Shown in pieces: positions 19,310 through 64,000 of a stretch of DNA of 64,000 nt. The stretch is from NCBI GenBank assembly GCA_009914755.4, contig CP086569.2, positions 15,232,001 through 15,296,000 on the forward strand. Direction: 5' to 3'. This DNA is from the human T2T-CHM13v2.0 reference genome, Homo sapiens. A program made the position numbers and the translations under genes. A model generated the notes under the pieces. It searched no databases and was not told the DNA's origin. It was given only the letters and a program-made list of their open reading frames with translations. The number at the start of each line of letters is the position of its first letter. The stretch's first letter is position 1.

Positions 19310-19875
19310 GAAATGAGATGAAAATTCTTCTCCTGATCTAAGGTCTTTTCTCAATTGAAGGGTTTCTGGTCTCAAAGGCTTCAAGGAATGTAGTCATGGA
19401 CCAGTGGTGAGTGTTACAGCTCAATTAGAGAAGGGCACCAACCCAAAGAGTGTGTGCTGGCAAGATTTATTAAAGCCAAAGTGAAAGTAAAACTTCCACG
19501 CGGTGGAAGGGGACCCAGAAGGGTTGTCATTTCTGGCTTGGGTGTCTTATGCTTATATCCCCTTATGACTTCCCCACCTTTTCCTTTTTCTGTCCTATAG
19601 GATTAGCTTATTTTCTATCTGTGGGTTGGCAGGCCTGATTGATTAAAAACATCAGGCTGCAGCTAGAGCTTAAATTACTAATATGATTGGTTGATGTTTC
19701 AATCCCTTAGTTTGCAGCTGTGACTCATTTCGGCTTAGGAGAAAGTCCCCTTTGATTAGTTGAAGTTTCAATCCCTTAGCTTGCAGCTATGAGTCATTTT
19801 GGCTTAGGGAAAAGCCCCTTGGGGAAGTCCCTATAGACCCAGGAAGTCCAGCCAACTTAGCCACTTAGTCCGTCA
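19310..19875 (-). repeat. 5' LTR of provirus A
   Basis: Homologous to 15071-15656. Upper end is ...ccgtCA, then unrelated flank. Lower end abuts a PBS-like sequence. Confidence 0.8.
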
Positions 19876-29937: not shown

Positions 29938-30773
29938 TTATGAATAGTTGAGCAAGGTGAATAGGAGTATGATGAGACAGAAGATAGTAGGGATGACAAG
30001 TATTTTGTGGTGCAGTCCAATTTGGTCTGGTGTCTGGAATGAGACTGGGGCCTAATAAAAAGGAGCATCTATATAGGAGCTCAGATGGGCTATACTCTGT
30101 AGCATTCCGAGGACAGGCCGGAATTCTGAGAAGGGCAAGCGGTAAAGTATTGTCCAGTCCTTTTTAAGTTGTTGGCTGAGCTTGGTGAGGTGTGTTTTTA
30201 AAAGACCATCAGTCCATTCTACCTTTCCTGAAGAATGAGGACAGTAAGGGATATAAAGGTTTCAGTGAATACCAAGAGCCTGAAAAACTGCTTGGGTGAT
30301 TTGGCTAATATAGGCCAGTCCGTTATCAGACTGTGTAGAGGTTGGAAGGCCAAACCAAGGAATTCTGTCTGACAGAAGGGAAGAAATGACCGAGGTGGCC
30401 TTTTCAGATCTGTGGGAAATGCCTGTACCCATCCAATGAAAGTGTCTACCCAGATCAAGAGATAATTTAGTTTTCTGACTCAGGGCATGTGAGTAAAGTC
30501 AATTTGCCAGTCCTGGGCAGGGGCACATCCCTGAGCTTGATGTGTAGGGAAGTGGAATGTGGGGGGCCTGAACAATCCCTGAGGAGGAGGAGTAGAATAG
30601 CAGATGGAACACTGAGAAGTTATTTCCTTAAGGATAGATTTCCACAATGGAAAGGAAACGAGAGGTTCTAAAAGGCAGGCTAGTGGCTTGTATCCTACAT
30701 GGAAGAGGTTATGAAATGATGACAGAATAGAATGGGCCTGTGAGGCTGGAATCATTCTTGCTCCAAGAACCAT
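29900..30773 (-). pseudogene. pol: Integrase of block 1 (…QDWQIDFTHMP; IWVDTF.GWVQAFP; C-terminal TKLSQQLKKDW...SRHQTKL), running directly into the CA C-terminus of block 2 near 29940
   Basis: IN core (D,D) and C-terminal similarity to MLV IN on the minus strand. No LTR or leader separates it from the following gag fragment. Confidence 0.7.
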
Positions 30774-30893
30774 TTGCCTTGTGTAGGAAGAGATTGGTAG
30801 TTGGAAGTTTCATTGGGGAGTAGGTGGGAGTGAACAATGAGAAGGAAAAAAACTGCTTTAGGGATAGAAGTTGGAATACTAGCTGCTTTTTAG

Positions 30894-31419
30894 CTACCTT
30901 ATCAGCATAAACATTGTGCTGAGTGATGGGACCTGATGCCTTTGGATGGCTGCTCTTTTAGCTACCTTATCAGCATAAGCATTGTTCTGAGCAATGGGAT
31001 GTGATGCCTTTTGATGGCCCTTGCAGTGAATGACTCCAGCTTCCTTCGGAAGTAAAGCAGCTTTGAGAAGCGTTTTTATTAAAGAGGCATTAATGATGGA
31101 GGACACTTGCATAGTGAGGAATTTTTTTTTCCCATATAACAGCTTTGTGGTGCAGGATATGGAAGGCATATTTAGAGTCAGTATAAATATTGATGCATAG
31201 TCCTTTTGCAAGAGCAAGGTCTCAAGTTAAGGCAATGAGTTCAGCTTGCTGAGAGGTAGTGTGGGTAGGTAACAGAAAGTAGATGCACCAGGTGTGAGGC
31301 AGGAAATAGATTTTGGAAGTTATTAGAACTGTAGAGAGTAGAGAGTGAGTTGAGCATAGTTTGTGATTTTGAGGGCCTCTATAAGTATTAAGGCAGTGGC
31401 AGCTGCAGCACACAGACAT
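30894..31419 (-). pseudogene. pol: RNase H of block 1 (TSQQAELIALT ... AGVIHCKGHQKASHPIAQNNAYADKVAKRAA)
   Basis: Conserved RNaseH motifs (AELIAL; IHC.GHQK...N..AD..A) in ORFs 31222-31419 and 30894-31217. Confidence 0.85.
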
Positions 31420-31452
31420 GAGGGCTAGGCTAAAAGAGTAAGGTTAAGTTGT

Positions 31453-32100
31453 TTAGATGAAAAGGATACAGGATGTGTTCACAGGTAGGAACTCTGGCTT
31501 GACTGAAGTAATGGGGACTGTCTGTGAAGCCTTGTGGCAGTACAGCCCAGGTAATTTGCTGAGCCTGATAGGTGTCAGTGTCAGTCCAAGTGAAAGTGAA
31601 GAGAAGCTGGGGTTAAGGGTGCAAACAAATAGTGAAGAAGGCATGTTTGAGATCCAGAACAGAATAATGGGTTGTGGAGGGAGGTATTGAGGATAGGAGA
31701 GTATATGGGTTTGGCACCATGGGGTGGGTAGGCAAAACAATTTGGTCGATAAGGAACAGATCCTGAAGTAACCTGTAAGGCTTGTCTGGTTTTAGGACGG
31801 GTAAAATGGGGGAATTGTAAGGAGAGTTTATAGGCTTTAAAAGGCCATGCTCTAACAGGATAGTGATAACAGGCTTTAATCCTTTTAAAGCATGCTGTGG
31901 GATGGGATATTGGCATTGAGTGGGGTAAGCCTGATTAGGTTTTCATGGGATGGTAAGGGGGTGCATCATCTATTGTCAAGAAGGACGTAGAGGTGTCCTA
32001 TACTTGTGGATTAAGGTGGGTAGATACAAGGAGAGGATGTGAAGGAGGATTTGAATTGGGGGAAAATGTGGCAATGAGGTGTGGCTGTAGCCTAGGAATA
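31453..32100 (-). pseudogene. pol: RT N-terminal part of block 1 (LPQGF-like ...RLSKLPGLYCHKASQ). The YXDD region is missing, so there is an internal deletion of roughly 0.8 kb before RNaseH
   Basis: RT finger/palm-like ORFs 31453-31740 and 31581-31916. Only about 70 codons separate the RT fragment from the RNaseH AELIAL motif. Confidence 0.6.
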
Positions 32101-32122
32101 GTCAGGGAAGCCAATAATTTAG

Positions 32123-32407
32123 TTAAAATGTTTGACCTAATAAGGGAGCTGGGCAGGTGGGGATAACTAAGAAGGAGTGCATAAAAGAATATTGTCCAAG
32201 TTTGCACCAGATTTGGGGAGTTTTAAGAGGTTTAGAAGCCTGTCCATCAATACTCACAACAGTTATGGAGACCAGGGAAACGTGCCCTTGAAAAGAAGGT
32301 AATGTGAAGTGGGTAGTCTCTGTACTGATTAAGAAGGGTACAGACTTACCCTCCACTATGAGTGTTACCCAAAGCCTCTGTGATGGCCTCCCATACAGAT
32401 GTGACAC
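32123..32407 (-). pseudogene. pro: Protease of block 1 (VTLIVEGKSVPFLISTETTHFTL...PLLGQTF; the DTGA active site is degraded to STET and GRD to GQT)
   Basis: Collinear with the PR of block 2 and of provirus A. Confidence 0.7.
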
Positions 32408-32890
32408 AGCTTAGGAGGAATCCCAGGCTGCAGGTATTCCTTGGCTCTGTGGACAGATTTCTGGCACTTGAAGCAAGATCCTGGGGTAGGAGTTCCTGGA
32501 GGAACACTTGGCCACTGCAGTTCAGGCATTTGGAAGTTCTTGTGTGCTGAAGATGTGGCTGGGGTTTGTCTCACAGTGGAAACAAGGAATTGCAACTCAG
32601 AAATATGTTGTTACTTGGCTGCCTCTACACTATTATTGTAAACCTTGAAGATGAGGCTAATTAAGTCCTGTTGTGGGGTTTGAGGGCTGGAATTTAATTT
32701 TTGGAGTTTTATTTAATGTCAGGAGCTGACTGAGTAATAAAATGTATACTAAGAATAAGACAGTCTTTTGACCTTTTAGGGTCTAGGGCTGCAAAGTGTC
32801 TCTGGGTTGCTGCCAAATGAGGCATGAACTGGGCTGGGTTTTTCTATTTGATGAAAAAGAGCCTAAATGCTAACTGATTTTGGAGAAGTC
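32365..32890 (-). pseudogene. gag: gag NC (CFKCQKSVHRAKEY with the final Cys mutated to Tyr; second CHICMGGHH) plus truncated CA (PFSLSDFSKI ... region) of block 1
   Basis: ORF 32365-32595 and minus-strand translation of 32600-32890. The CA N-terminal motif PFSLSDF matches provirus A (PFSLSDL). Confidence 0.7.
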
Positions 32891-32937
32891 AGATAAAGAA
32901 AAAGGAGCATTAACCTTGACTGTGCCTTTAGCTCCAG

Positions 32938-34259
32938 TCACCTTTTTAAGAGGAAAGTGCTAGTCATGTAGGGGAGAGCTAGTCGTGGAAAGAAACTGTG
33001 AGCCAGACTGGAACAAAACTGTAAGCCAGACAGGGTTTGAGGAGGGGAGGTGATAAAAGGATTATAGGGTGCATGAGCAGAGGCTGAGGAAGAATTGGGA
33101 CCTGGCTTGGCCTGGTGAGGAGCAGCCTGGGGAGGAGGGGAGAGGTCAGATGGGTCCATAGAAAGGAAGATTGGAAAGACTCAGTGACACTTGGGATTGG
33201 GACTGAGGGGACAGGCAGGAGGGAAAGAAGCAAGATTTGGGACTAGTTGCATTGGGAACAGAGACTAGGGAGGGACCAATGTGTGAAAGAATGCCTGGAC
33301 ATCAGGCACCTCAGACCATTTGCCCATTTTATGACAAGAACTCATTAGATCTTATAGGATGGAAAAATCAAGAGTGCCATTTTCTGGCTATTTGGAACCA
33401 CTATTGTGTTTGTATTGAGGTCAAGAGGCATTGCAGAAGAAAATAAGGCATTTAGGTTTTAGGTTAGGTGTGAGTTGAAGAGGTTTTAAATTGTTGAGAA
33501 TACAGTCTAAAGGAGAAGAAGGAGGAATGGAGGGTGGAAGTTTGCCCATAGTGAAGGAGGCAAGTCCAGAGAAAAAAGAGTATAGAGACATAGAGAGAAG
33601 GTGTGGGGGATACCTGCCCCCCAGGAAAGTGGAGAAGGGGTGGAGACAGGGAGAGAAGGGGCAGGAGGTGCTTGCCCCCTAGAAAAGTGGAAAAGGGATG
33701 GGTAGAGATGTGGAGAGAAGGGGTGAGTGAACAGCCCTGGGCTGCCTGTGGGTGTACATCCAAAGCAGGCATCCCCACAACTGACTTGCCACAAAAGGAA
33801 TGTGGTTAAATGACCAAGGCAGGCATCCCTGTGGTGATCAGACATCAATGAAATGTGGGTGAATAATCAGGCAGGTGTCCCCGCATGATTAAATACCTAG
33901 GGAAGACTGTCTTCCTAAGTCTGTGACCAGGGCCAGAGTTTTGGGTCCACAGAAAAAACACATCTCCTTTGTCTCTACCAGAAAAGGAAAGGAACTGAAA
34001 TTAAGGGAAGGGAGAGACTGAAGTGTGGCCCCAAGATTGAAATGGAAAGAGGTTGACGGATAGTGAGAGAGGTTGGAGAAGAGAGTAAAAAGAGGCCGTT
34101 AACCCGATTTAAAATTGGTGAGATATTCCTTGGGCTGGTTGATCTGAGGACCAGAGGTTGTATGTTGATCTTTCTCATGGAGAAAAGAGCAGGAGGACAG
34201 GGGATTGATCTCCCAAGGAATGTTACCCAGTCTGGGTCATGGCACCAGATGTCATGCAC
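32938..34259 (-). other. Presumed p12/MA/leader region of block 1. It includes a Pro-rich segment (PPPQ.., PYNPF) and three ~48-bp tandem repeats at 33715-33900 (…ggcaggcatcccc…)
   Basis: Position relative to the CA start fits a leader plus MA/p12. Homology to the provirus A leader is weak, so the assignment is tentative. Confidence 0.4.
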
Positions 34260-37660: not shown

Positions 37661-38663
37661 CAGGCATCATTTCTAATTTAAGCAGGCAATTTCTTTGGAA
37701 AACCAAATTGTTATAAATAAAGTTTCAGTGCCTAAAAAGAAACAGCACTTGAATATAAAATTGTCTTTTTAATTCTCAGCAAGACAAGGTACTTCTATAG
37801 AAGGGTGTGCTCTCAATGATGGAGCAATGGTGGGCACACACCTGGACAAGAGAGGGGATGGGGTTCTTATCCATGACGCATGTGGCCCCTGCTGCTGTGT
37901 CATTCCCCTATTGTTTAGGGTTAGATCACACAGGCTAAACTAATTCCAACTGGCTAATTTAAAGACAATGATGGGGTAAGCACTTTGGTGGGAGTCAGGG
38001 CAGAGCAGGTAGCAGGTAATCAGAATGAGTTAGGGTGGAGCAGGTGATCAGAATGAGTCGGGGGGGGGGGTAGGTAAATGAAAAAGGTTGCTTTACAAGG
38101 AATTTAAGTTTCAAAGTAGAAGGCAAAGAATTGAACATACTGACATATTAATTATCTGAAGAGAAATTTAGAATTCATATTCAACAAAATGCAAAGGAAA
38201 CCACATAGAATCATATGGAAAAACTCCTACACCTAAAATATGCTTGTGTGAAAAGAAAAATATATATATTTTATGCTTTATGCTCCATTAAAAACCGCTG
38301 GATCCTTTCTCACTGTTAAATCTACCATTAGCTTAAAAAGTTAATCTGACATTATTAAAAACTAAGATGGTTAAAAATGAAACGGGTAGATAAAATACAT
38401 AGAACATATGGTTATCTACTTTAGAATTGTTAGGCAGGTTGCTAAGGAGCCCTTGTAGCAGGACTAGTGGGAATCCTTGAGATCATGACCCATATTGCCA
38501 GGCATAGTCCCCAATGCACAGGCATGGAGTCTTTAAAGTTAAAGTTTATTTAAAGAAAAACAATAATGGCAACAACTAAAATATGGTGAAAGCTATACAA
38601 TAAAAATATATAAGCAGAGGAAACAAAGTGCAATTTATAGACTTGAACTGATTCTGAAACAAA

Positions 38664-38930
38664 AGGAGAACAGGAGGAGGAGAACAAGAAAGAGAAGGAG
38701 GAGAAGAAAGGGGCAGGGGAGAGAAAGAGAAGAGATAGGAGGAGGAGAAGGTGGAAGAGGAAAGAGAGAAGGATGCAAAGGAGAAGGAAGGGAGGGAGAA
38801 GTGGAAGGAGGAGGAAGAGGAGGAGAAGGGAGAGGAAGACAGGAGAAGAAGAGAGGAGAAGAAAGGCGAAAGAGAGAAGGAAGAAGTGGGGTGAAAAGAG
38901 GAAGGAAATAGGAGAATAAAATAAAATAGA
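38664..38930. repeat. GA-rich polypurine low-complexity tract ((GGA)n/(GAA)n-like, about 265 bp)
   Basis: aggaggaggagaacaagaaagagaaggaggagaagaaagggg...aggaggagaagggagaggaagacaggagaagaagagag. Confidence 0.9.
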
Positions 38931-39225
38931 GGGCCCAGTGAAATTACTCACCCCTGTAATCCCAACACTTTGGGAGGCTGAGCTGGGTGGATCCATTGAG
39001 GCTAGAAGTTTGAGACCAGCCTGGGCAACATGATGAAACCCTGTCTACTAAAAATACAAAAATTAGCCTGATGTGATTGCTCACACCTCTAATCCCAGCT
39101 ACTCAGGAGCCTGAGGCAGGAGACATTTTTGACTCAGGAGGCAAAGTTTGCAGGGAGCCAAGGTTATGCCACCACACTCCAATCTGGCTGACAGAATGAG
39201 ACCCCATCTCAGAAAAAAAGAAACT
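38931..39225 (+). mobile_element. Alu SINE inserted in the GA-rich tract
   Basis: cccctgtaatcccaacactttgggaggctgag...cctgatgtgattgctcacacctctaatcccagctactcagg...ccatctcagaaaaaaag. Confidence 0.9.
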
Positions 39226-39240
39226 GCAGGTCCTGCCATC

Positions 39241-39375
39241 CAGGAAGAGAAAGAAGAGGGTGAGGATAGGGAAGGTGAGAGAAGGAGGAGGAATAGAATG
39301 GGGAGAAGATGGAGGAAGAAAAGAAGGAGAACAAGGAGGAAGAGAAGGAGCATGGATAGGAAGAGGAAAAAGATG
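39241..39375. repeat. Second GA-rich polypurine tract, continuing the first across the Alu
   Basis: caggaagagaaagaagagggtgaggatagggaaggtgagagaaggaggaggaatagaatggggagaagatggaggaagaaaagaaggagaacaaggaggaagagaaggag. Confidence 0.85.
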
Positions 39376-39399
39376 ACTATCGAATGCACTAATTTTAGG

Positions 39400-39678
39400 T
39401 GGGGAGTAGTGGCTCATGCTTGTAATCCTAGCACTTTGGGAGGCCGAGGCAGGTGGGTAATTTGAGGTCAGGAGTTCAAGACCAACCTGGCACACATGGT
39501 GAAATCTTGCCTTTACTAAAAATACAAAAATTAACTTGTTGTAGTGGCACATGTCTGTAATCCCAGCTCTCAGGAGGCTGAGGCAGGAGAATCGCTTGAG
39601 ATTGGGGGTCAGAGGTTGCAGTGAGCACAGATTGAGCCACTGCACTCCATTCTGGGCAAAAGAGTGAGAAAAAAACCC
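39400..39678 (+). mobile_element. Alu SINE
   Basis: ggtggggagtagtggctcatgcttgtaatcctagcactttgggaggccgaggcagg...cactgcactccattctgggcaaaagagtgagaaaaaaa. Confidence 0.93.
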
Positions 39679-40805
39679 ACTAATTTTAGAACAATTGGGA
39701 ATATTTCAATGAGCACCGCATCACAGAAGATGATATTGAATCATTGTTATTTTTCATATGTGTGACAATGCTAAAGCAGAAGAAATTCCTCCTTTGAAAA
39801 CTCAGGCTGCAGGTGTGAGGGAAACTAAGAGTAAAATTGTCCAAACTTGAACAAACAGAAATCAAAAAATCTCAGCTAAAAGGGCCATAGGAAGAATGTC
39901 TAATGAGGGGCCATGCTGTTCTATCCCCAGGGCAGCAGGTAAGGATCAATAGGGTAGGGGAATCTTGAGGTCAGACAAGAAAGAGAAGCTCACAATGTGT
40001 GGAAGAGTTCAGCAGTGGATACACCAAATGGATAAAGACACCAGTACAAAAGCAGGACAGAAACAGGTGAGATGACCCATTTGTGGATCTATAAATAGTT
40101 CCAAACAGCTCTGTACCTCCTCAGGCAAGCAGGTGGAGGAACTGGGTGACAAGAAGTCTGTTATTAGATGAAACCATGAATTCAAGCAACTCCTGTTCCT
40201 GAAATGGAAATCTTGATGTCATGCAATGTAGCTTTTCTCAGGCTATGTATAAAAGCAACACCTGAGCATATAGGTTCCAATTAAAATTATGCAAATAAAA
40301 TGAACTCTCACAACACAAATTCATGAGGATTGCTGACTAGTTGCTATTCTGAGTGACTCTCTATGAGCAGGAACAATTCATGCCCTTATGGTATTACCAG
40401 GGAGTGGATCTAGTCCATTCCTCCATGAATTGACGCAATCCCTGAGCACTTACTTTGAAACCTATGGTTCTAGAAGACTCTGCAAAAATTGGCGGATAAA
40501 AGAAAGAATGTGAAGGCCCCATCAGCTGAGAACTTCAAATGAGGATATAGGAATGAGATGGACACACACAAAAAGATTCAAAGACAACAAATGTGAAATT
40601 TGAAGTAATATACTGAACACTGCAGATAAATATCTCTGAGTTATTATTTTGAAGACACTTTATAAAGACTATAATAGATAGTCTTTATTTGTTATAGACT
40701 TATACTACAGGTGTTCCTCTGTGAAGGAGAATGGATTCCATGTAATGATCCTTCATGGGGATAGAGAGTCTTAAGGTTAATCACACTGAGGGATTAAAAA
40801 CGTAG

Positions 40806-42589: not shown

Positions 42590-42965
42590 CTACAATGGAG
42601 TTATTTGGATTCTTAAAGTTACCCAAAAAAATAAGCAAAGAAAATTCAAATAACCCCATCAAACAGTGGTCAAATGCCATGAACAGACATTTCTCAAAAA
42701 AAGATATACAAATGGCCAATAAACATGATGCTCAACGTGCCAACAAACATGTTCAAAATGCCAACATGCAAATTAAAGCCACAATGAGATATCAACTTAC
42801 CCTGCAAGAAAGGCCACTGGGGGAGGGATAGCATTAGGAGATATACCTAATGCTAAATGACGAGTTAATGGGTGCAGCACACCAACATGGCAGATGTATA
42901 CATATGTAACAAACCTGCACGCTGTGCACATGTACCCTAAAACCTAAAGTATAATAATAATAATT
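42590..42965 (+). mobile_element. L1 (L1PA-type) 3' end with an internal deletion: ORF2 C-terminal segment (NNPIKQW..MNRHFSKKDIQMANKH..IKATMRY) joined to the terminal 3'UTR and A-rich tail
   Basis: ORF 42595-42831 matches the L1 ORF2 C-terminal peptide. gggagggatagcattaggagatatacctaatgctaaatgacgagttaatgggtgcagcacaccaacatggcagatgtatacatatgtaacaaacctgcac is the L1 3'UTR end. Confidence 0.85.
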
Positions 42966-43055
42966 TTTTATTAACTTAAAATATAATAATAATTATTATT
43001 TATTATTATTATTTATTATTAACTTAAAGTATAAAAATAATAATAAATTATTATT

Positions 43056-43161
43056 ATACTTTAGGTTTTAGGGTACATGTGCACAACGTGCAGGTTTGTT
43101 ATATATGTATACATCTGCCATGTTGGTGTGCTGCACCCATTAACTCGTCATTTAGCATTAG
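43056..43161 (-). repeat. Inverted duplicate of the L1 3'UTR end (arm 2 of a palindrome whose arm 1 is 42846-42951; 104/106 identical; 104-bp AT-rich spacer)
   Basis: The reverse complement of 43056-43161 equals 42846-42951 except for 2 mismatches, read directly. Confidence 0.9.
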
Positions 43162-43185
43162 GGGACTATTAATCATGCTGCTATA

Positions 43186-44035
43186 AAGACACATGCACAC
43201 GTGTGTTTATTGTGGCACTATTCACAATAGCAAAGACTTGGAACCAACCCAAATGTCTAACAATGATAGACTGGATTAAGAAAATGTGGCACATATACAC
43301 CATGGAATACTATGCAGTCATAAAAAATAATAAAATTTTTTAAAAAATCAATAAATAAAATAAAAAGTCAAAAAACAATAAATGTTGGTGTGGATATGGT
43401 GAAAAGGGAGTGCTTGTATACTGCTGCTGGGAATGTAAATTGGTATATGGAAAAGAGTTGGAGATTTCTCAGAAAACTAAAAGTAGACCTACTATTTGAT
43501 CCAGCAATCTGACTACTGAATATCTACCCAAAGGAAAAGAAGCCATTATATGAAAAGGACACCTAAATGCATGTTTATTACAGCAGAATTCACAAATGCA
43601 AGATATGGAATCAACCTAAGTGACCATCAACCAATGAGTAAATAAAGAAAATATGGTATATATACAGCATAGAATACTACTCAGCCATAAAAATGAATGA
43701 AATAATGTCTTTGTGATGGGGCTGGAAGCCATTATTTTAAGTGAAGTAACTCAGGAATGGAAAACCAAATACCATAGGTTCTCACTTATAAGTGAGAGCT
43801 AAACAATGAGTATGCAAAGGCATACAGAATGGTAAAATAGACACTGGAGACTCAGAATCTGGGAGGGTGGGAGGGATGTGGGGGATAAATAACTACATAT
43901 TGGGTACAATATACACTACTCAGGTGACAGGTGCACTAAAATCTCAGACCACACCACTATACAATTCAACCATGTAGGCAAAAAATATTTGTATCCCAAA
44001 AAGCTATTGAAATAAAAAAACTATATATTTTAAAA
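43186..44035 (+). mobile_element. L1 3' end (ORF2 C-terminus ..IAKTWNQPKCLTMIDWIKKMWHIYTMEYYAVIKNNKIF.. plus an older-type 3'UTR and A-rich end)
   Basis: tattgtggcactattcacaatagcaaagacttggaaccaacccaaatgtctaacaatgatagactggattaagaaaatgtggcacatatacaccatggaatactatgcagtcataaaaaat ... gggagggtgggagggatgtggggg ... ends aaagctattgaaataaaaaaa. Confidence 0.85.
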
Positions 44036-44140: not shown

Positions 44141-44455
44141 AAGGAACTCTTTTGTTTCTTTGTTTTTGGTACAGGGTCTTGCTCTGTCACCTAGGCTGAA
44201 GAGCAGTGGTACAAAATATAGCTCACTCCAGCCTCAAACTTCTGGGCTCAAGCAATCCTCCTGCCTCAGCCTCCTGAGTAACTAGGACTACAGGTACATG
44301 ACACAATGCCTGGCTATTCTCAAAAAAAATTTATAGAGATGAATCTTTCTATGTTCTTCAGGTGGGTCTCACTATGTTGTCCAGACTACAAGTCATCCTC
44401 CTGACTCAGCCTCCCAAAGTGCGGGGATTACAGGTATGAGCCACCAAACCTAGCC
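44141..44455 (-). mobile_element. Alu SINE, reverse orientation
   Basis: Plus strand reads the Alu reverse complement: ttgtttttggtacagggtcttgctctgtcacctaggctg...cctcagcctcctgagtaactagg...cctcccaaagtgcggggattacaggtatgagccaccaaacctagcc. Confidence 0.93.
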
Positions 44456-44863
44456 AAGGGAGGGGAATTTTTTTTTTTTTTTTTTGAGATGTGGTGAAAA
44501 TTTACAATCAGTAGAGTTTTAGTAAAGCACATTGCCCTCCATAACATGGGTGGGCCCCATCCAGCCAGTCGAAGTTCTTAAGCATAAAGACCAATGTTTT
44601 CCAAAGAAGGAAGAATTCAGCATCCAGACTAACATAAAAATTCAGCCTGGGTTTCCAGCAGTTAGACTCAAGGCTGTGTTATACACTATTTTCCCGGTCT
44701 CCAGCCAGCCAGTCTGTTCTACACATTGTTGCCAGCCTCTGGCCCAATCAAATAAACCTTTCTCCCTCTCTGTCTCTCCTCTCTCTCTGCATATATAGAT
44801 TGGTACAAAACTAATTAAAATTTTTGTCATTAAAAGTAATTTTGCACCAATTTAATACATGCA

Positions 44864-45114
44864 TCTGTGTGTATATATGTATACCTACATATACATATAT
44901 GTATATGCATATGTATATGTTAGTATATGTATATATGTGTATGTATGTACACATGTGTATATACACAGATGTGGGTGTGTGTATTATGTGTTTATATGTA
45001 GTGTGTGTGTGTGTATGTATATATATATATATATATATACCTGTATTTGTGTGTATTTAAATATATATATATATATACCTGTATTTGTGTGTATTTATAT
45101 ATATATATATATAT
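44864..45114. repeat. Compound (TG)n/(TA)n/(CA)n microsatellite with an internal ~38-bp direct repeat, preceded by a short (CT)n at 44760-44800
   Basis: tgtgtgtatatatgtatacctacatatacatatatgtatatgcatatg...gtgtgtgtgtgtatgtatatatatatatatatatacctgtatttgtgtgtattta repeated twice. Confidence 0.9.
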
Positions 45115-59273: not shown

Positions 59274-59330
59274 TATGTGTGTGTGCATGCGTGTGTGTGT
59301 GTAGTGTATGTGTATGTATACACACAAAAC
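59274..59330. repeat. (GT)n/(GTAT)n imperfect microsatellite
   Basis: gtgtgtgtgcatgcgtgtgtgtgtgtagtgtatgtgtatgtatacacac. Confidence 0.9.
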
Positions 59331-59430
59331 ACCCACATACCCATAAGTATATATAGATATGCATACACACCTATATATATGCACACATAAATATGTATAC
59401 ACCTATATATGCATATAGTTCTCTCTCAGA

Positions 59431-59640
59431 GATATAGATAGACAGACAGATACATAGATGGATAGATAGATAGATAGACAGACAGATATAGATGTGGATA
59501 GAATAGATGGTAGATAAATAGGATAGATGGAATAGAAGATTGAGATAGATATGGATGGAATAGATACCTCGATAACATGAGATAGATAGAATAGATAGAT
59601 ACATATAGATCAGATAGAGAGATTAAATAGAGATAGATGT
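59431..59640. repeat. (GATA)n/(GACA)n degenerate tetranucleotide block, about 210 bp, in the opposite strand sense to the TATC block at 57712-58260
   Basis: agatatagatagacagacagatacatagatggatagatagatagatagacagacagatatagatg... Confidence 0.9.

Positions 59641-60674: not shown

Positions 60675-64000
<3,326 letters not shown>

What the first reader, a model, noticed from the sequence alone, without database searches (positions are those of the whole stretch)
42846..43161. Near-perfect 106-bp inverted repeat (palindrome) made from an L1 3'UTR end, with a 104-bp AT-rich spacer, between two L1 3' fragments
The reverse complement of 43056-43161 matches 42846-42951 at 104/106 positions. The left arm is the genuine end of an L1PA-type 3'UTR whose ORF2 tail is deleted. 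The right arm is followed by an older-type L1 3' end in the same plus orientation that supplies exactly the ORF2 C-terminal region missing from the first. A palindrome this good is young, and it is a potential hairpin/cruciform and fragile or assembly-problem site. It may have arisen by twin priming or by fold-back repair at an L1 insertion.
Basis: seen in the sequence. Interest (0 to 1): 0.55.

Follow-up and report, generated by a model that had tools for sequence, protein, structure and literature searches.

The report
Tail-to-tail nested L1 fragments forming palindrome
A real 317-bp near-palindrome in human DNA, most likely made when a second L1 retrotransposon copy with an inverted 5' end landed backwards in the tail of an earlier L1 fragment: an ordinary by-product of L1 activity with modest hairpin potential.

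Summary
The inverted repeat is real. The arms extend to 116 nt (42846-42961 / 43047-43162, 114/116) around an 85-nt, 96.5% AT spacer.

An old L1 (~70% identical to L1PA) is split by a ~530-bp block of young L1PA3/4-like pieces:
- the last 145 nt of an L1 (+, 42819-42961);
- the last 116 nt of an L1 (-, the right arm);
- 166 nt of L1PA ORF2 (+, 43163-43328, ORF2p aa 1195-1236).

The right arm plus the ORF2 piece have the architecture of a 5'-inverted ("twin-primed") L1 on the minus strand. It sits tail-to-tail against the earlier plus-strand fragment, at a reconstructable TTTTTT/AAAAAA endonuclease site with a possible 16-17-bp target-site duplication.

Both arms share two substitutions absent from 18 other L1PA 3' ends, so they share a template: the same source, arm-to-arm conversion, or a fold-back copy. 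The spacer is not palindromic. It is a tandem array of the left arm's tip.

It is not a PATRR. No spanning assembly or ape orthologue was available. Known mechanisms, low novelty.

The parts
42621..42816 (+). Left half of the old host L1 (ORF2 region)
   Evidence: 71% identity to full-length L1PA coordinates 5278-5469; 70% to the in-window L1PA copy. Independent human contigs L019, L021 and L022 are 99.6-100% identical across this region and its junction with the next part.
42819..42961 (+). Element 1: 5'-truncated L1PA3/4-like 3' end (last ~145 nt of an L1), plus strand. Contains the left arm.
   Evidence: 96.6% identity to L1PA coordinates 6007-6151. Panel alignment shows 3 differences from consensus, 2 of them shared with the right arm.
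42846..42961 (+). Left arm of the palindrome
   Evidence: 114/116 complementary to 43047-43162. 42906 G and 42922 C are confirmed in independent contig L021.
42962..43046 (.). AT-rich spacer (85 nt, 96.5% AT). Not palindromic. Holds two further plus-oriented copies of the L1 terminus, AACTTAAA[A/G]TATAA, at 42973 and 43021.
   Evidence: The two halves are not significantly complementary (P=0.12) but are significantly direct repeats (37/42, P=0.0005). blastn matches 43021-43048 to the L1 terminus 6129-6157.
42941..43057 (+). Tandem array of the left-arm tip (L1 terminus + (AAT)n + (ATT)n): three head-to-tail copies
   Evidence: TRF: 42941-43005 period 32, 2.0 copies, 87%; 42963-43057 period 48, 2.0 copies, 87%. 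The repeat finder D2.
43047..43162 (-). Right arm: the last 116 nt of an L1PA 3' end on the minus strand (non-inverted, tail-proximal cDNA of Element 2)
   Evidence: 96.5% to L1PA coordinates 6148-6034, minus orientation. Carries the same two private substitutions as the left arm.
43163..43328 (+). L1PA ORF2 C-terminal piece, inverted relative to the right arm (inverted 5' segment of Element 2). Ends at the internal A-run CATAAAAAAT.
   Evidence: 96.5% to L1PA coordinates 5656-5824. 5/166 differences from a 14-copy consensus. Translation matches human ORF2p residues 1195-1236 of 1275, E=4e-23, and homology stops at the A-run. The junction with the right arm (...CATTAGG|GGACTAT...) has no microhomology.
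42953..42969 (+). Candidate left copy of Element 2's target-site duplication (AATAATAATAATTTTTT)
   Evidence: 17/18 match with one gap to 43326-43341. Not significant on its own in AT-only sequence (P=0.12).
43326..43341 (+). Candidate right copy of the target-site duplication (AATAATAAAATTTTTT), directly followed by AAAAAATC
   Evidence: Joining the left copy to 43342 onward reconstructs ...AATTTTTT/AAAAAATC..., a canonical L1 endonuclease site.
43342..43360 (+). A-rich stretch (AAAAAATCAATAAATAAAA): probable remainder of Element 1's tail and/or A-rich old-L1 target
   Evidence: Read from the sequence. The boundary with the old L1 cannot be placed to the base.
43361..44030 (+). Right half of the old host L1, through its 3' end and A-rich tail
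   Evidence: 69% identity to L1PA coordinates 5476-5988, colinear with the left half (5469 -> 5476). Sequence read.

Best explanation
Two nested L1PA3/4-type retrotransposition products lie tail-to-tail inside an older L1.

Step 1 (inferred): a heavily 5'-truncated L1PA (last ~145 nt plus a short AT-rich tail) inserted in plus orientation into an A-rich spot of the old L1.

Step 2 (inferred from the architecture): L1 endonuclease nicked the plus strand at TTTTTT/AAAAAA in or next to that tail. Target-primed reverse transcription from this T-run made the minus-oriented L1 3' end, which is the right arm (116 nt). The opposite 3' overhang primed internally at the ORF2 A-run (CAUAAAAAAU) and made the 166-nt ORF2 piece. 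This is twin priming. The two cDNAs were joined blunt, leaving about 210 nt of L1 missing between them.

The result is L1-end(+) / tails / L1-end(-), a palindrome.

The arms are nearly identical and share two private substitutions because they derive from the same template. Either both insertions came from the same source lineage (possibly close in time), or substitutions were copied between the arms by conversion or template switching.

The centre was later made asymmetric by tandem duplication of the arm tip (32- and 48-nt periods). This lengthened the spacer to 85 nt and should reduce hairpin or cruciform formation.

The feature has no function. It is a structural scar with some secondary-structure potential.
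For: - The old L1 is colinear across the block (5278-5469 | 5476-5988), so the block is an insertion.
- All three young pieces are of similar age: 96.5% to a full-length L1PA, and 3/143, 3/116 and 5/166 differences from consensus.
- The right arm (L1 6034-6148, minus) abuts the ORF2 piece (5656-5822, plus). The inverted piece comes from upstream in the L1. Its 3'-most end (an A-run) faces the flank, and the two 5' ends are joined internally. This is exactly the twin-priming layout described in PMC2837659 and PMC12016303.
- 5' inversions occur in 18-22% of L1 insertions. 54% have more than 20 bp of gap or overlap between the cDNAs. TSD median is 13 bp. Blunt internal junctions without microhomology are documented.
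- A candidate TSD of 17/18 sits at the predicted places and reconstructs a TTTTTT/AAAAAA EN site.
- Shared private bases: G in CATGGCAGAT (0 of 18 panel copies have G) and C in AAAACCTAAAG (16/16 T); chance about 2e-4.
- L1 tails and homopolymers are noted as targets for later insertions, and L1s tend to insert into L1s.
- The spacer is a tandem array rather than a palindrome.
Against: - The sequence where Element 2's poly(A) should lie (42970-43046) is 39 A: 35 T in plus reading, not T-rich. It contains two plus-oriented L1-terminus motifs that simple TPRT does not predict.
- The TSD is not statistically significant by itself in AT-only sequence (P=0.12).
- No TSD for Element 1 can be identified.
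- The shared private substitutions need an extra assumption (same source lineage or conversion). None of the panel copies carries either variant.
- The internal terminus copies carry the consensus T where both arms carry C, which also needs an extra step.
- The 210-nt gap between the two cDNAs is larger than in the 46% of cases that lie within 20 bp.
- The order of the two insertions is not proven.
- No orthologous or spanning sequence could be obtained.
Confidence: 0.55

Rival explanations
1. Fold-back (inverted duplication) at an L1-induced break. An L1 insertion attempt broke the DNA in the tail of Element 1. The 3' overhang of the left end self-annealed in the (AAT)n/T-run and primed DNA synthesis back along Element 1, copying its last 116 nt as DNA to make the right arm. 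This end was then ligated to an L1 cDNA (the ORF2 piece) made on the other end. A non-L1 replicative template switch at the AT-rich tail is a close variant.
For: - The arms share two private substitutions and match each other better than any panel copy, as expected if one arm is a DNA copy of the other.
- When the tandem copies are collapsed, the centre reduces to L1 terminus-(AAT)n-T6-(ATT)n-terminus with essentially no poly(A)/poly(T), as a small-hairpin fold-back predicts.
- The left element extends 27 nt beyond the arm, so the left could be the template for the right.
- Local inverted duplications of genomic DNA next to new L1 insertions, primed from self-annealed overhangs with about 2-bp homology, are documented in L1-expressing clones and in tumours (bioRxiv 10.1101/2024.12.14.628481).
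- The right arm | ORF2 junction is blunt, consistent with end joining.
Against: - The accompanying L1 cDNA must lack its own 3' end and poly(A) (primed at an internal A-run or 3'-truncated), which is uncommon.
- It would be a coincidence that a DNA fold-back plus such a cDNA exactly mimics the canonical twin-priming order and orientation.
- Inverted-duplication outcomes look rare compared with 5' inversions (single examples, against 18-22%).
- The internal tandem copies carry T where both arms carry C. This is awkward if those copies were made from an arm after the fold-back.
Confidence: 0.2
2. The whole block is a single plus-strand insertion of a read-through transcript. A source L1 elsewhere already had the inverted L1 fragment downstream of its tail. 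Transcription ran through it and was polyadenylated after the AATAAA at 43329. The 5'-truncated cDNA (from L1 position 6007 onward) was inserted here with its 3'-transduced palindrome.
For: - The block is bounded on the left by a typical 5' truncation point.
- It is bounded on the right by AATAAA (43329-43334) followed 8 nt later by an A-run (43342-43347) and A-rich sequence.
- Only one event is needed at this locus.
Against: - It only moves the origin of the palindrome to another locus, so it needs more events in total.
- No TSD flanks the block.
- No paralogous sequence could be searched for with the available collections.
Confidence: 0.07
3. Assembly or sequencing artefact: a chimeric fold-back read or a mis-join through L1 repeats created an inverted arm that does not exist in the genome.
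For: - None of five independent short-read contigs of this locus crosses the palindrome. They end at 42842-42932 or jump into another L1.
- No contig holding the right-arm junction was found.
Against: - The arms differ at two positions and the spacer is asymmetric with its own tandem structure. Fold-back artefacts give perfect palindromes.
- Both outer flanks continue one colinear old L1.
- The right arm is joined to a specific L1PA piece in a biologically canonical layout.
- The left junction and the left arm's private bases are reproduced at 100% identity in independent human samples.
- Short-read contigs are expected to break in any young L1 sequence.
Confidence: 0.03

Closest known systems
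L1 5' inversion by twin priming (Ostertag & Kazazian 2001, as described in PMC2837659 and PMC12016303)
   Same: The right arm plus the ORF2 piece are two fragments of one L1 type in opposite orientation. The inverted one comes from further 5' in the L1. It was primed at an internal A-run next to the flank. There is an internal deletion and a blunt inner junction, and a plausible EN site and TSD.
   Different: The tail is not a recognisable poly(A). The TSD is statistically weak. The gap between the cDNAs (~210 nt) is on the large side. Twin priming alone does not make a palindrome. The palindrome exists only because the element abuts another L1 3' end in opposite orientation.
Nested L1-into-L1-tail insertion (tails and homopolymers as targets for later retrotransposition; PMC2837659, PMC12016303)
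   Same: A second L1 event lies in the AT-rich tail region of an earlier one, and both lie inside a still older L1.
   Different: Insertions into A-tails are usually expected in the same orientation (T-run on the bottom strand). Here the orientation is opposite, made possible by a T6A6 site that reads as an EN site on either strand. The two elements also share private substitutions.
L1-induced local inverted duplication / fold-back at ORF2p-generated break ends (bioRxiv 10.1101/2024.12.14.628481; PMC7058536 for large fold-backs)
   Same: An inverted copy of the DNA next to an L1 integration site, a small AT-rich turn, and a blunt junction to L1 cDNA.
   Different: Those cases are somatic (tumours, engineered clones) and carry polyadenylated insertions. 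Here the event is fixed in the germline, and the L1 cDNA lacks its 3' end under this reading. It is not distinguishable from twin priming with the data at hand.
Palindromic AT-rich repeats (PATRR11/22/17/8) that mediate recurrent translocations
   Same: A near-palindrome of a few hundred bp with an AT-rich centre and strong predicted hairpin.
   Different: PATRRs are more than 90% AT throughout and have no spacer (PMC4940405). Here the arms are only 61-63% AT, the whole is 71% AT, and there is an 85-nt asymmetric spacer.
Closely spaced inverted Alu pairs as fragile or replication-stalling motifs
   Same: Two highly similar retroelement fragments in inverted orientation close together.
   Different: The arms are shorter (116 vs ~300 bp) and the spacer is longer. 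In primate cells, stalling was seen with a 12-bp spacer but not a 52-bp one (PMC7999016), so this 85-bp-spacer repeat is expected to be comparatively stable.

Membership tests
Twin-primed (5'-inverted) L1 insertion | Two fragments of the same L1 in opposite orientations, adjacent to each other | tested here: met
   Right arm = L1 6148-6034 (minus); ORF2 piece = L1 5656-5824 (plus). They are directly abutting at 43162|43163, and both are 96.5% identical to L1PA.
Twin-primed (5'-inverted) L1 insertion | The inverted fragment derives from L1 sequence 5' of the non-inverted fragment. Its 3'-most end faces the 5' flank, and the two 5' ends are joined internally. | tested here: met
   Read on the minus strand, the order is flank - rc(5822..5656) - 6034..6148 - tail.
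Twin-primed (5'-inverted) L1 insertion | The non-inverted fragment ends in a poly(A) tail | tested here: inconclusive
   After the L1 terminus comes AT-rich microsatellite and tandem sequence (39 A: 35 T in plus reading), including a 29-nt (ATT/ATTT)n run that could be a decayed tail. There is no clean poly(A)/poly(T).
Twin-primed (5'-inverted) L1 insertion | Target-site duplications bound the whole insertion | tested here: inconclusive
   AATAATAATAATTTTTT (42953-42969) vs AATAATAAAATTTTTT (43326-43341), 17/18 with one gap, but P=0.12 against shuffled AT-rich sequence.
Twin-primed (5'-inverted) L1 insertion | L1 endonuclease consensus (TTTT/A) at the priming nick | tested here: met
   The reconstructed empty site is ...AATAATTTTTT/AAAAAATC.... 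This depends on accepting the TSD.
Twin-primed (5'-inverted) L1 insertion | Internal deletion or duplication of L1 sequence at the inversion junction | tested here: met
   About 210 nt (5823-6033) is missing between the two fragments. 54% of surveyed cases have more than 20 bp of gap or overlap.
PATRR (palindromic AT-rich repeat) | Several hundred bp in length | tested here: met
   317 bp (42846-43162).
PATRR (palindromic AT-rich repeat) | More than 90% AT content | tested here: not met
   Whole 71.3% AT; arms 61.2% and 62.9%; only the spacer is 96.5%. Criterion from PMC4940405.
PATRR (palindromic AT-rich repeat) | Nearly perfect palindrome without a spacer | tested here: not met
   The 85-nt spacer is not significantly self-complementary (P=0.12).
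PATRR (palindromic AT-rich repeat) | Site of recurrent or constitutional translocation breakpoints | not testable with these tools
   No human variation or breakpoint data are available here.
L1-induced local inverted duplication (DSB-end remodelling) | An inverted copy of genomic DNA immediately adjacent to a new L1 integration, on the reciprocal end | tested here: inconclusive
   The right arm is an inverted copy of the adjacent 116 nt and shares its private bases. Because that DNA is itself an L1 end, an RNA-templated origin cannot be excluded.
L1-induced local inverted duplication (DSB-end remodelling) | A polyadenylated TPRT insertion on the primary RT end | tested here: not met
   The plus-strand L1 piece ends at an internal ORF2 A-run (ORF2p aa ~1236) and lacks the L1 3'UTR and poly(A).

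The most novel reading that the evidence does not exclude
The right arm was not reverse-transcribed from RNA. It is a DNA fold-back copy of the neighbouring L1 end, made at an ORF2p-induced break. That would make this a germline-fixed, evolutionarily old example of the L1-induced local inverted duplications so far documented only in tumours and engineered cell clones. The arms may also have been kept alike since then by arm-to-arm conversion, despite being only 116 bp long.
Probability: 0.2. Interest if true: 0.45.

Novelty: new member of a known kind. Interest (0 to 1): 0.2.

Why it matters
It matters little beyond this locus. It is a clean worked example of how nested L1 events can build a near-perfect palindrome of a few hundred bp without any large-scale rearrangement, and of how the centre of such a palindrome becomes asymmetric by tandem duplication. 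Practically, it is a site where short-read assemblies break: five of five independent contigs stop or go chimeric here. It could also form a hairpin on single-stranded DNA. The 85-nt spacer and 61-63% AT arms argue against PATRR-like fragility. If ape orthologues showed the fold-back origin, or ongoing arm homogenisation, it would be a small but useful germline counterpart to L1-induced rearrangements seen in cancer.

Tried and rejected
They were replaced by the register from the repeat finder.
- 'The spacer is part of a degenerate palindrome' was rejected. The halves are not significantly complementary (P=0.12) but are direct repeats (P=0.0005) (TRF).
- 'Dual priming / both ends primed on poly(A)' (PMC2837659) was rejected on geometry. 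It gives tails-out, not tails-in.
- 'One L1PA insertion (ORF2 piece to 3' end) later rearranged by inversion or multi-step template switching' was rejected. The ORF2 piece keeps plus orientation, and at least four jumps would be needed.
- 'Two independent same-family insertions with no shared template' was rejected on the two shared private substitutions.
- PATRR membership was rejected.

Searches that led nowhere:
- The viral contig scan for L1 ends found 0 hits.
- Two metagenome scans found 0 hits: one for the right-arm|ORF2 junction and one for the right flank or predicted empty site.
- Nine exact-protein look-ups of ORFs in or beside the palindrome found nothing.
- L018 and L020 turned out to be repeat-induced chimeras and say nothing about the palindrome.
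- The original twin-priming paper (PMC311219) is not held, so its criteria are taken from later papers.
- One literature query failed on term length.
- Dating from substitutions is too imprecise to be useful: 2 private arm substitutions in 232 nt versus 5 in 166 nt for the ORF2 piece, P=0.11.

Full report
OBSERVATION

The sequence around 42846-43161 was read directly and scanned for repeats.

The pairing continues inward through TATAATAATAAT. The true arms are therefore 42846-42961 and 43047-43162, at 114/116, with an 85-nt spacer that is 96.5% AT. The two mismatches are at 42906/43102 and 42922/43086. Outside the arms, complementarity stops at once.

As single-stranded DNA the segment folds into one hairpin at -147 kcal/mol, against -30 +/- 4 for shuffles (z = -30). 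No other inverted repeat outside low-complexity sequence, of at least 40 nt with arms within 2 kb, exists in the 64-kb window.

SOURCE AND INDEPENDENT SUPPORT

A 78-aa ORF crossing the left junction is present, identically, on five contigs from human-gut and other metagenomes and from a Logan run. L019, L021 and L022 are 99.6-100% identical to the window. The window is therefore human. The junction between the old L1 and the L1PA piece, and the left arm's own bases (the shared G, 42906 G and 42922 C), are reproduced in independent samples.

None of the five contigs crosses the palindrome. They stop at 42842-42932. L018 jumps into a different L1 3' end at about 42922, and the first half of L020 is foreign. 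Nine further ORF look-ups and two metagenome scans for the right-hand junction and flank found nothing. So there is no spanning confirmation. This is expected for short-read assemblies in young L1 sequence.

ANATOMY

No repeat library was available, so I built references from two sources. One is an L1PA copy on the minus strand of the same window (60677-61420). The other is 17 human L1 3' ends found as contaminants in bacterial genome assemblies, several on ~6-kb contigs that are essentially full-length L1s.

On the coordinates of one full-length copy (L003, sense strand), the locus reads:
- 42621-42814 = 5278-5469 at 71% identity;
- 42819-42963 = 6007-6151 at 96.6% (plus);
- 43048-43162 = 6148-6034 at 96.5% (minus);
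- 43163-43331 = 5656-5824 at 96.5% (plus);
- 43361-43852 = 5476-5988 at 69%.

The two ~70% pieces are one old L1, colinear across the gap (5469 to 5476). Everything between about 42817 and 43350 is therefore an insertion into it, made of three young L1PA pieces. By comparison with the panel, these are L1PA3/4-like: GCTAAATGACGAG...AACAAACCTGCACGTTGTGCAC. The subfamily names come from my own knowledge.

The plus-strand piece after the right arm encodes ORF2p residues 1195-1236 of 1275 (E = 4e-23). It loses homology exactly at the A-run CATAAAAAAT. It differs from a 14-copy consensus at 5 of 166 positions.

The ORF2-like sequence left of the left arm belongs to the old L1, not to an internally deleted L1PA. 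The first 166 nt right of the right arm are young L1PA, not old-type.

THE ARMS SHARE A TEMPLATE

In the panel alignment, both arms carry G in CATGGCA[G]AT. None of the 18 panel copies has G there: 17 have C (counting the in-window copy) and 1 has T. The search pattern left this base free, so the sample is unbiased at this position. Both arms also carry C in AAAAC[C]TAAAG, where all 16 informative copies have T.

Each arm has one further private change. The arms match each other at 114/116 but match no panel copy better than 112/116. The chance that two independent copies with three substitutions each share two of them is about 2e-4.

So the arms are not independent draws from the family. There are three possibilities: they came from the same source RNA or lineage, one was copied from the other as DNA, or changes were transferred between them afterwards.

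THE SPACER

The two halves of the spacer are not significantly complementary (P = 0.12), but they are significantly direct repeats (37/42, P = 0.0005). TRF resolves this as a tandem array of the left arm's tip: 42941-43005 with period 32 (2 copies, 87%) and 42963-43057 with period 48 (2 copies, 87%). The L1 terminus AAC[C/T]TAAA[G/A]TATAATAAT followed by (ATT)n occurs three times head to tail.

If the copies are collapsed, the centre becomes L1 terminus-(AAT)n-T6-(ATT)n-terminus, that is, almost no spacer. I infer that the palindrome originally had a very short centre and was later made asymmetric by tandem duplication.

The two internal copies carry the family-consensus T where both arms carry C. 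Either they predate that change, which was then copied between the arms, or they have a separate origin. I could not resolve this.

MECHANISM

The right arm and the ORF2 piece have the layout of a 5'-inverted L1, read on the minus strand: flank, inverted upstream fragment whose 3'-most end (an A-run) touches the flank, then the non-inverted 3' end, then the tail. This is the twin-priming product as defined in PMC2837659 and surveyed in PMC12016303:
- 18-22% of L1 insertions carry a 5' inversion.
- The TSD median is 13 bp.
- Only 46% have the two cDNAs within 20 bp of each other.

Blunt internal junctions without microhomology are described and attributed to end joining. The junction here...CATTAGG|GGACTAT..., has no microhomology.

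At the places predicted for the target-site duplication lie AATAATAATAATTTTTT (42953-42969) and AATAATAAAATTTTTT (43326-43341), matching at 17/18 with one gap. Joining the left copy to the sequence after the right copy reconstructs ...AATTTTTT/AAAAAATC..., a canonical endonuclease site that reads the same on both strands. This similarity is not significant on its own in AT-only sequence (P = 0.12), so I treat it as consistent rather than as proof.

The simplest full history is:
(1) a 145-nt 5'-truncated L1PA inserted into the old L1;
(2) a second, twin-primed L1PA inserted in the opposite orientation in or at its tail;
(3) tandem duplication at the centre.

The shared private bases then need either a common source lineage or arm-to-arm conversion. 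A common source is plausible when few elements are active, and coordinated or synchronous insertions are reported in tumours. The substitution counts (two shared and two private in the arms, against 5/166 in the ORF2 piece) fit conversion but do not exclude the alternatives (P = 0.11).

Weak points of this model:
- There is no recognisable poly(T) where Element 2's tail should be.
- Two plus-oriented terminus motifs in the spacer are unexplained.
- No TSD can be found for Element 1.
- The order of the two insertions is unproven.

RIVALS

(a) Fold-back copy. At an ORF2p-induced break in Element 1's tail, the 3' overhang self-anneals and primes synthesis back along Element 1, and this end is then joined to an L1 cDNA made on the other end. 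Such local inverted duplications next to new L1 insertions, with about 2-bp homology at the turn, are documented in L1-expressing clones and in cancers (bioRxiv 10.1101/2024.12.14.628481). This rival explains the shared private bases and the near absence of a tail directly. It also requires a cDNA lacking the L1 3' end and poly(A), combined with a rare outcome that happens to mimic the twin-priming layout. I give it 0.2.

(b) Single 3'-transduction insertion. The whole block was copied from a source locus that already held the structure. AATAAA at 43329 is followed by an A-run at 43342. This cannot be tested here and costs more events overall. I give it 0.07.

(c) Assembly artefact. This is unlikely. 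The arms differ at two sites, the spacer is asymmetric with its own internal structure, the flanks are colinear, and the left part is independently reproduced. I give it 0.03.

COMPARISON WITH KNOWN SYSTEMS

- It works like, and most probably is, a twin-primed L1 nested tail-to-tail in another L1 end. Four of the six defining features tested are met and two are inconclusive (poly(A) and TSD).
- It is not a PATRR. PATRRs are more than 90% AT and have no spacer (PMC4940405). Here the arms are 61-63% AT and the spacer is 85 nt.
- It resembles inverted Alu pairs as a potential hairpin. In primate cells, replication stalling at inverted Alus was seen with a 12-bp spacer and lost with a 52-bp one (PMC7999016). 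Strong fragility is therefore not expected.
- 'Dual priming' and the joined inverted L1 pairs described in tumours have their tails outward, the opposite of this locus.

VERDICT

This is a real, unusually clean palindrome, built from known L1 processes. Novelty is low: it is a new instance of known kinds. The one mildly interesting open point is whether the right arm is RNA-templated or a DNA fold-back copy, and whether the arms are being homogenised. Ape orthologues and a genome-wide census of the two private variants would settle it.

Noticed in passing
window 60677-61420 (minus strand): A second young L1PA copy. Relative to full-length copies, it lacks roughly 150 nt between ...GAAATCATCATTCTCAGTA and GATATACCTAATGC. 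That is the end of ORF2 and the G-rich start of the 3'UTR, partly the same region that is missing between the two pieces at the palindrome. Its 3' end reads ...AAAGTATAATAATAAAAAAAGTCATAGG.
   Followed up: partly
loci L001-L017 (GTDB species-representative bacterial and archaeal assemblies): Seventeen 'bacterial' contigs contain human L1 3' ends. Several ~5-6.3-kb contigs are essentially full-length human L1s, for example Actinomadura cremea JCM 3308 sequence060 and Senimuribacter sp. DSM 106208 NODE_32. This is human contamination in reference assemblies. I used them here only as an L1 panel.
   Followed up: partly
L018 (JGI 3300032031, 2870 bp) and L020 (ENA ERZ980147, 1003 bp): These are chimeric metagenome contigs. 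L018 follows this locus to about 42921 and then continues into a different L1 3' end with its own flank. L020 is identical to the window only in its second half. Both are mis-joins caused by repeats.
   Followed up: yes
window 44160-44490: An Alu-like element in antisense orientation (GGTCTTGCTCTGTCACCTAGGCTG...CCTCAGCCTCCTGAGTAACTAGGACTACAGG) lies just beyond the old L1's A-rich end, with a T-run at about 44469-44489.
   Followed up: no
window 30001-34000 and 38001-40000: Strong strand asymmetry: GC skew +0.31 to +0.35, and AT skew +0.30 at 38-40 kb. There is a GA-rich 24-nt tandem repeat at 39279-39347. The cause was not examined.
   Followed up: no
window 57054-59623: A cluster of simple and tandem repeats: (AT)40 at 57054-57133; a 233-nt unit x1.9 at 57712-58162 (96% identical); (TCTA)n at 57982-58249; (ATAG)n at 59434-59623.
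   Followed up: no
window 45008-45114; 19684-19820; 30882-31018: A 38-nt TG/TA-rich tandem repeat (2.8 copies, 94%), which the repeat finder also scores as a weak inverted repeat, and two ~68-69-nt two-copy tandem duplications (86-88%).
   Followed up: no
window 42973-42990 and 43021-43036: The two internal plus-oriented copies of the L1 terminus carry the family-consensus T (AACTTAAAG/AACTTAAAA), where both palindrome arms carry C (AACCTAAAG). This is unexplained. It hints at transfer of the C between the arms after the tandem duplication, or at a separate origin for the internal copies.
   Followed up: partly
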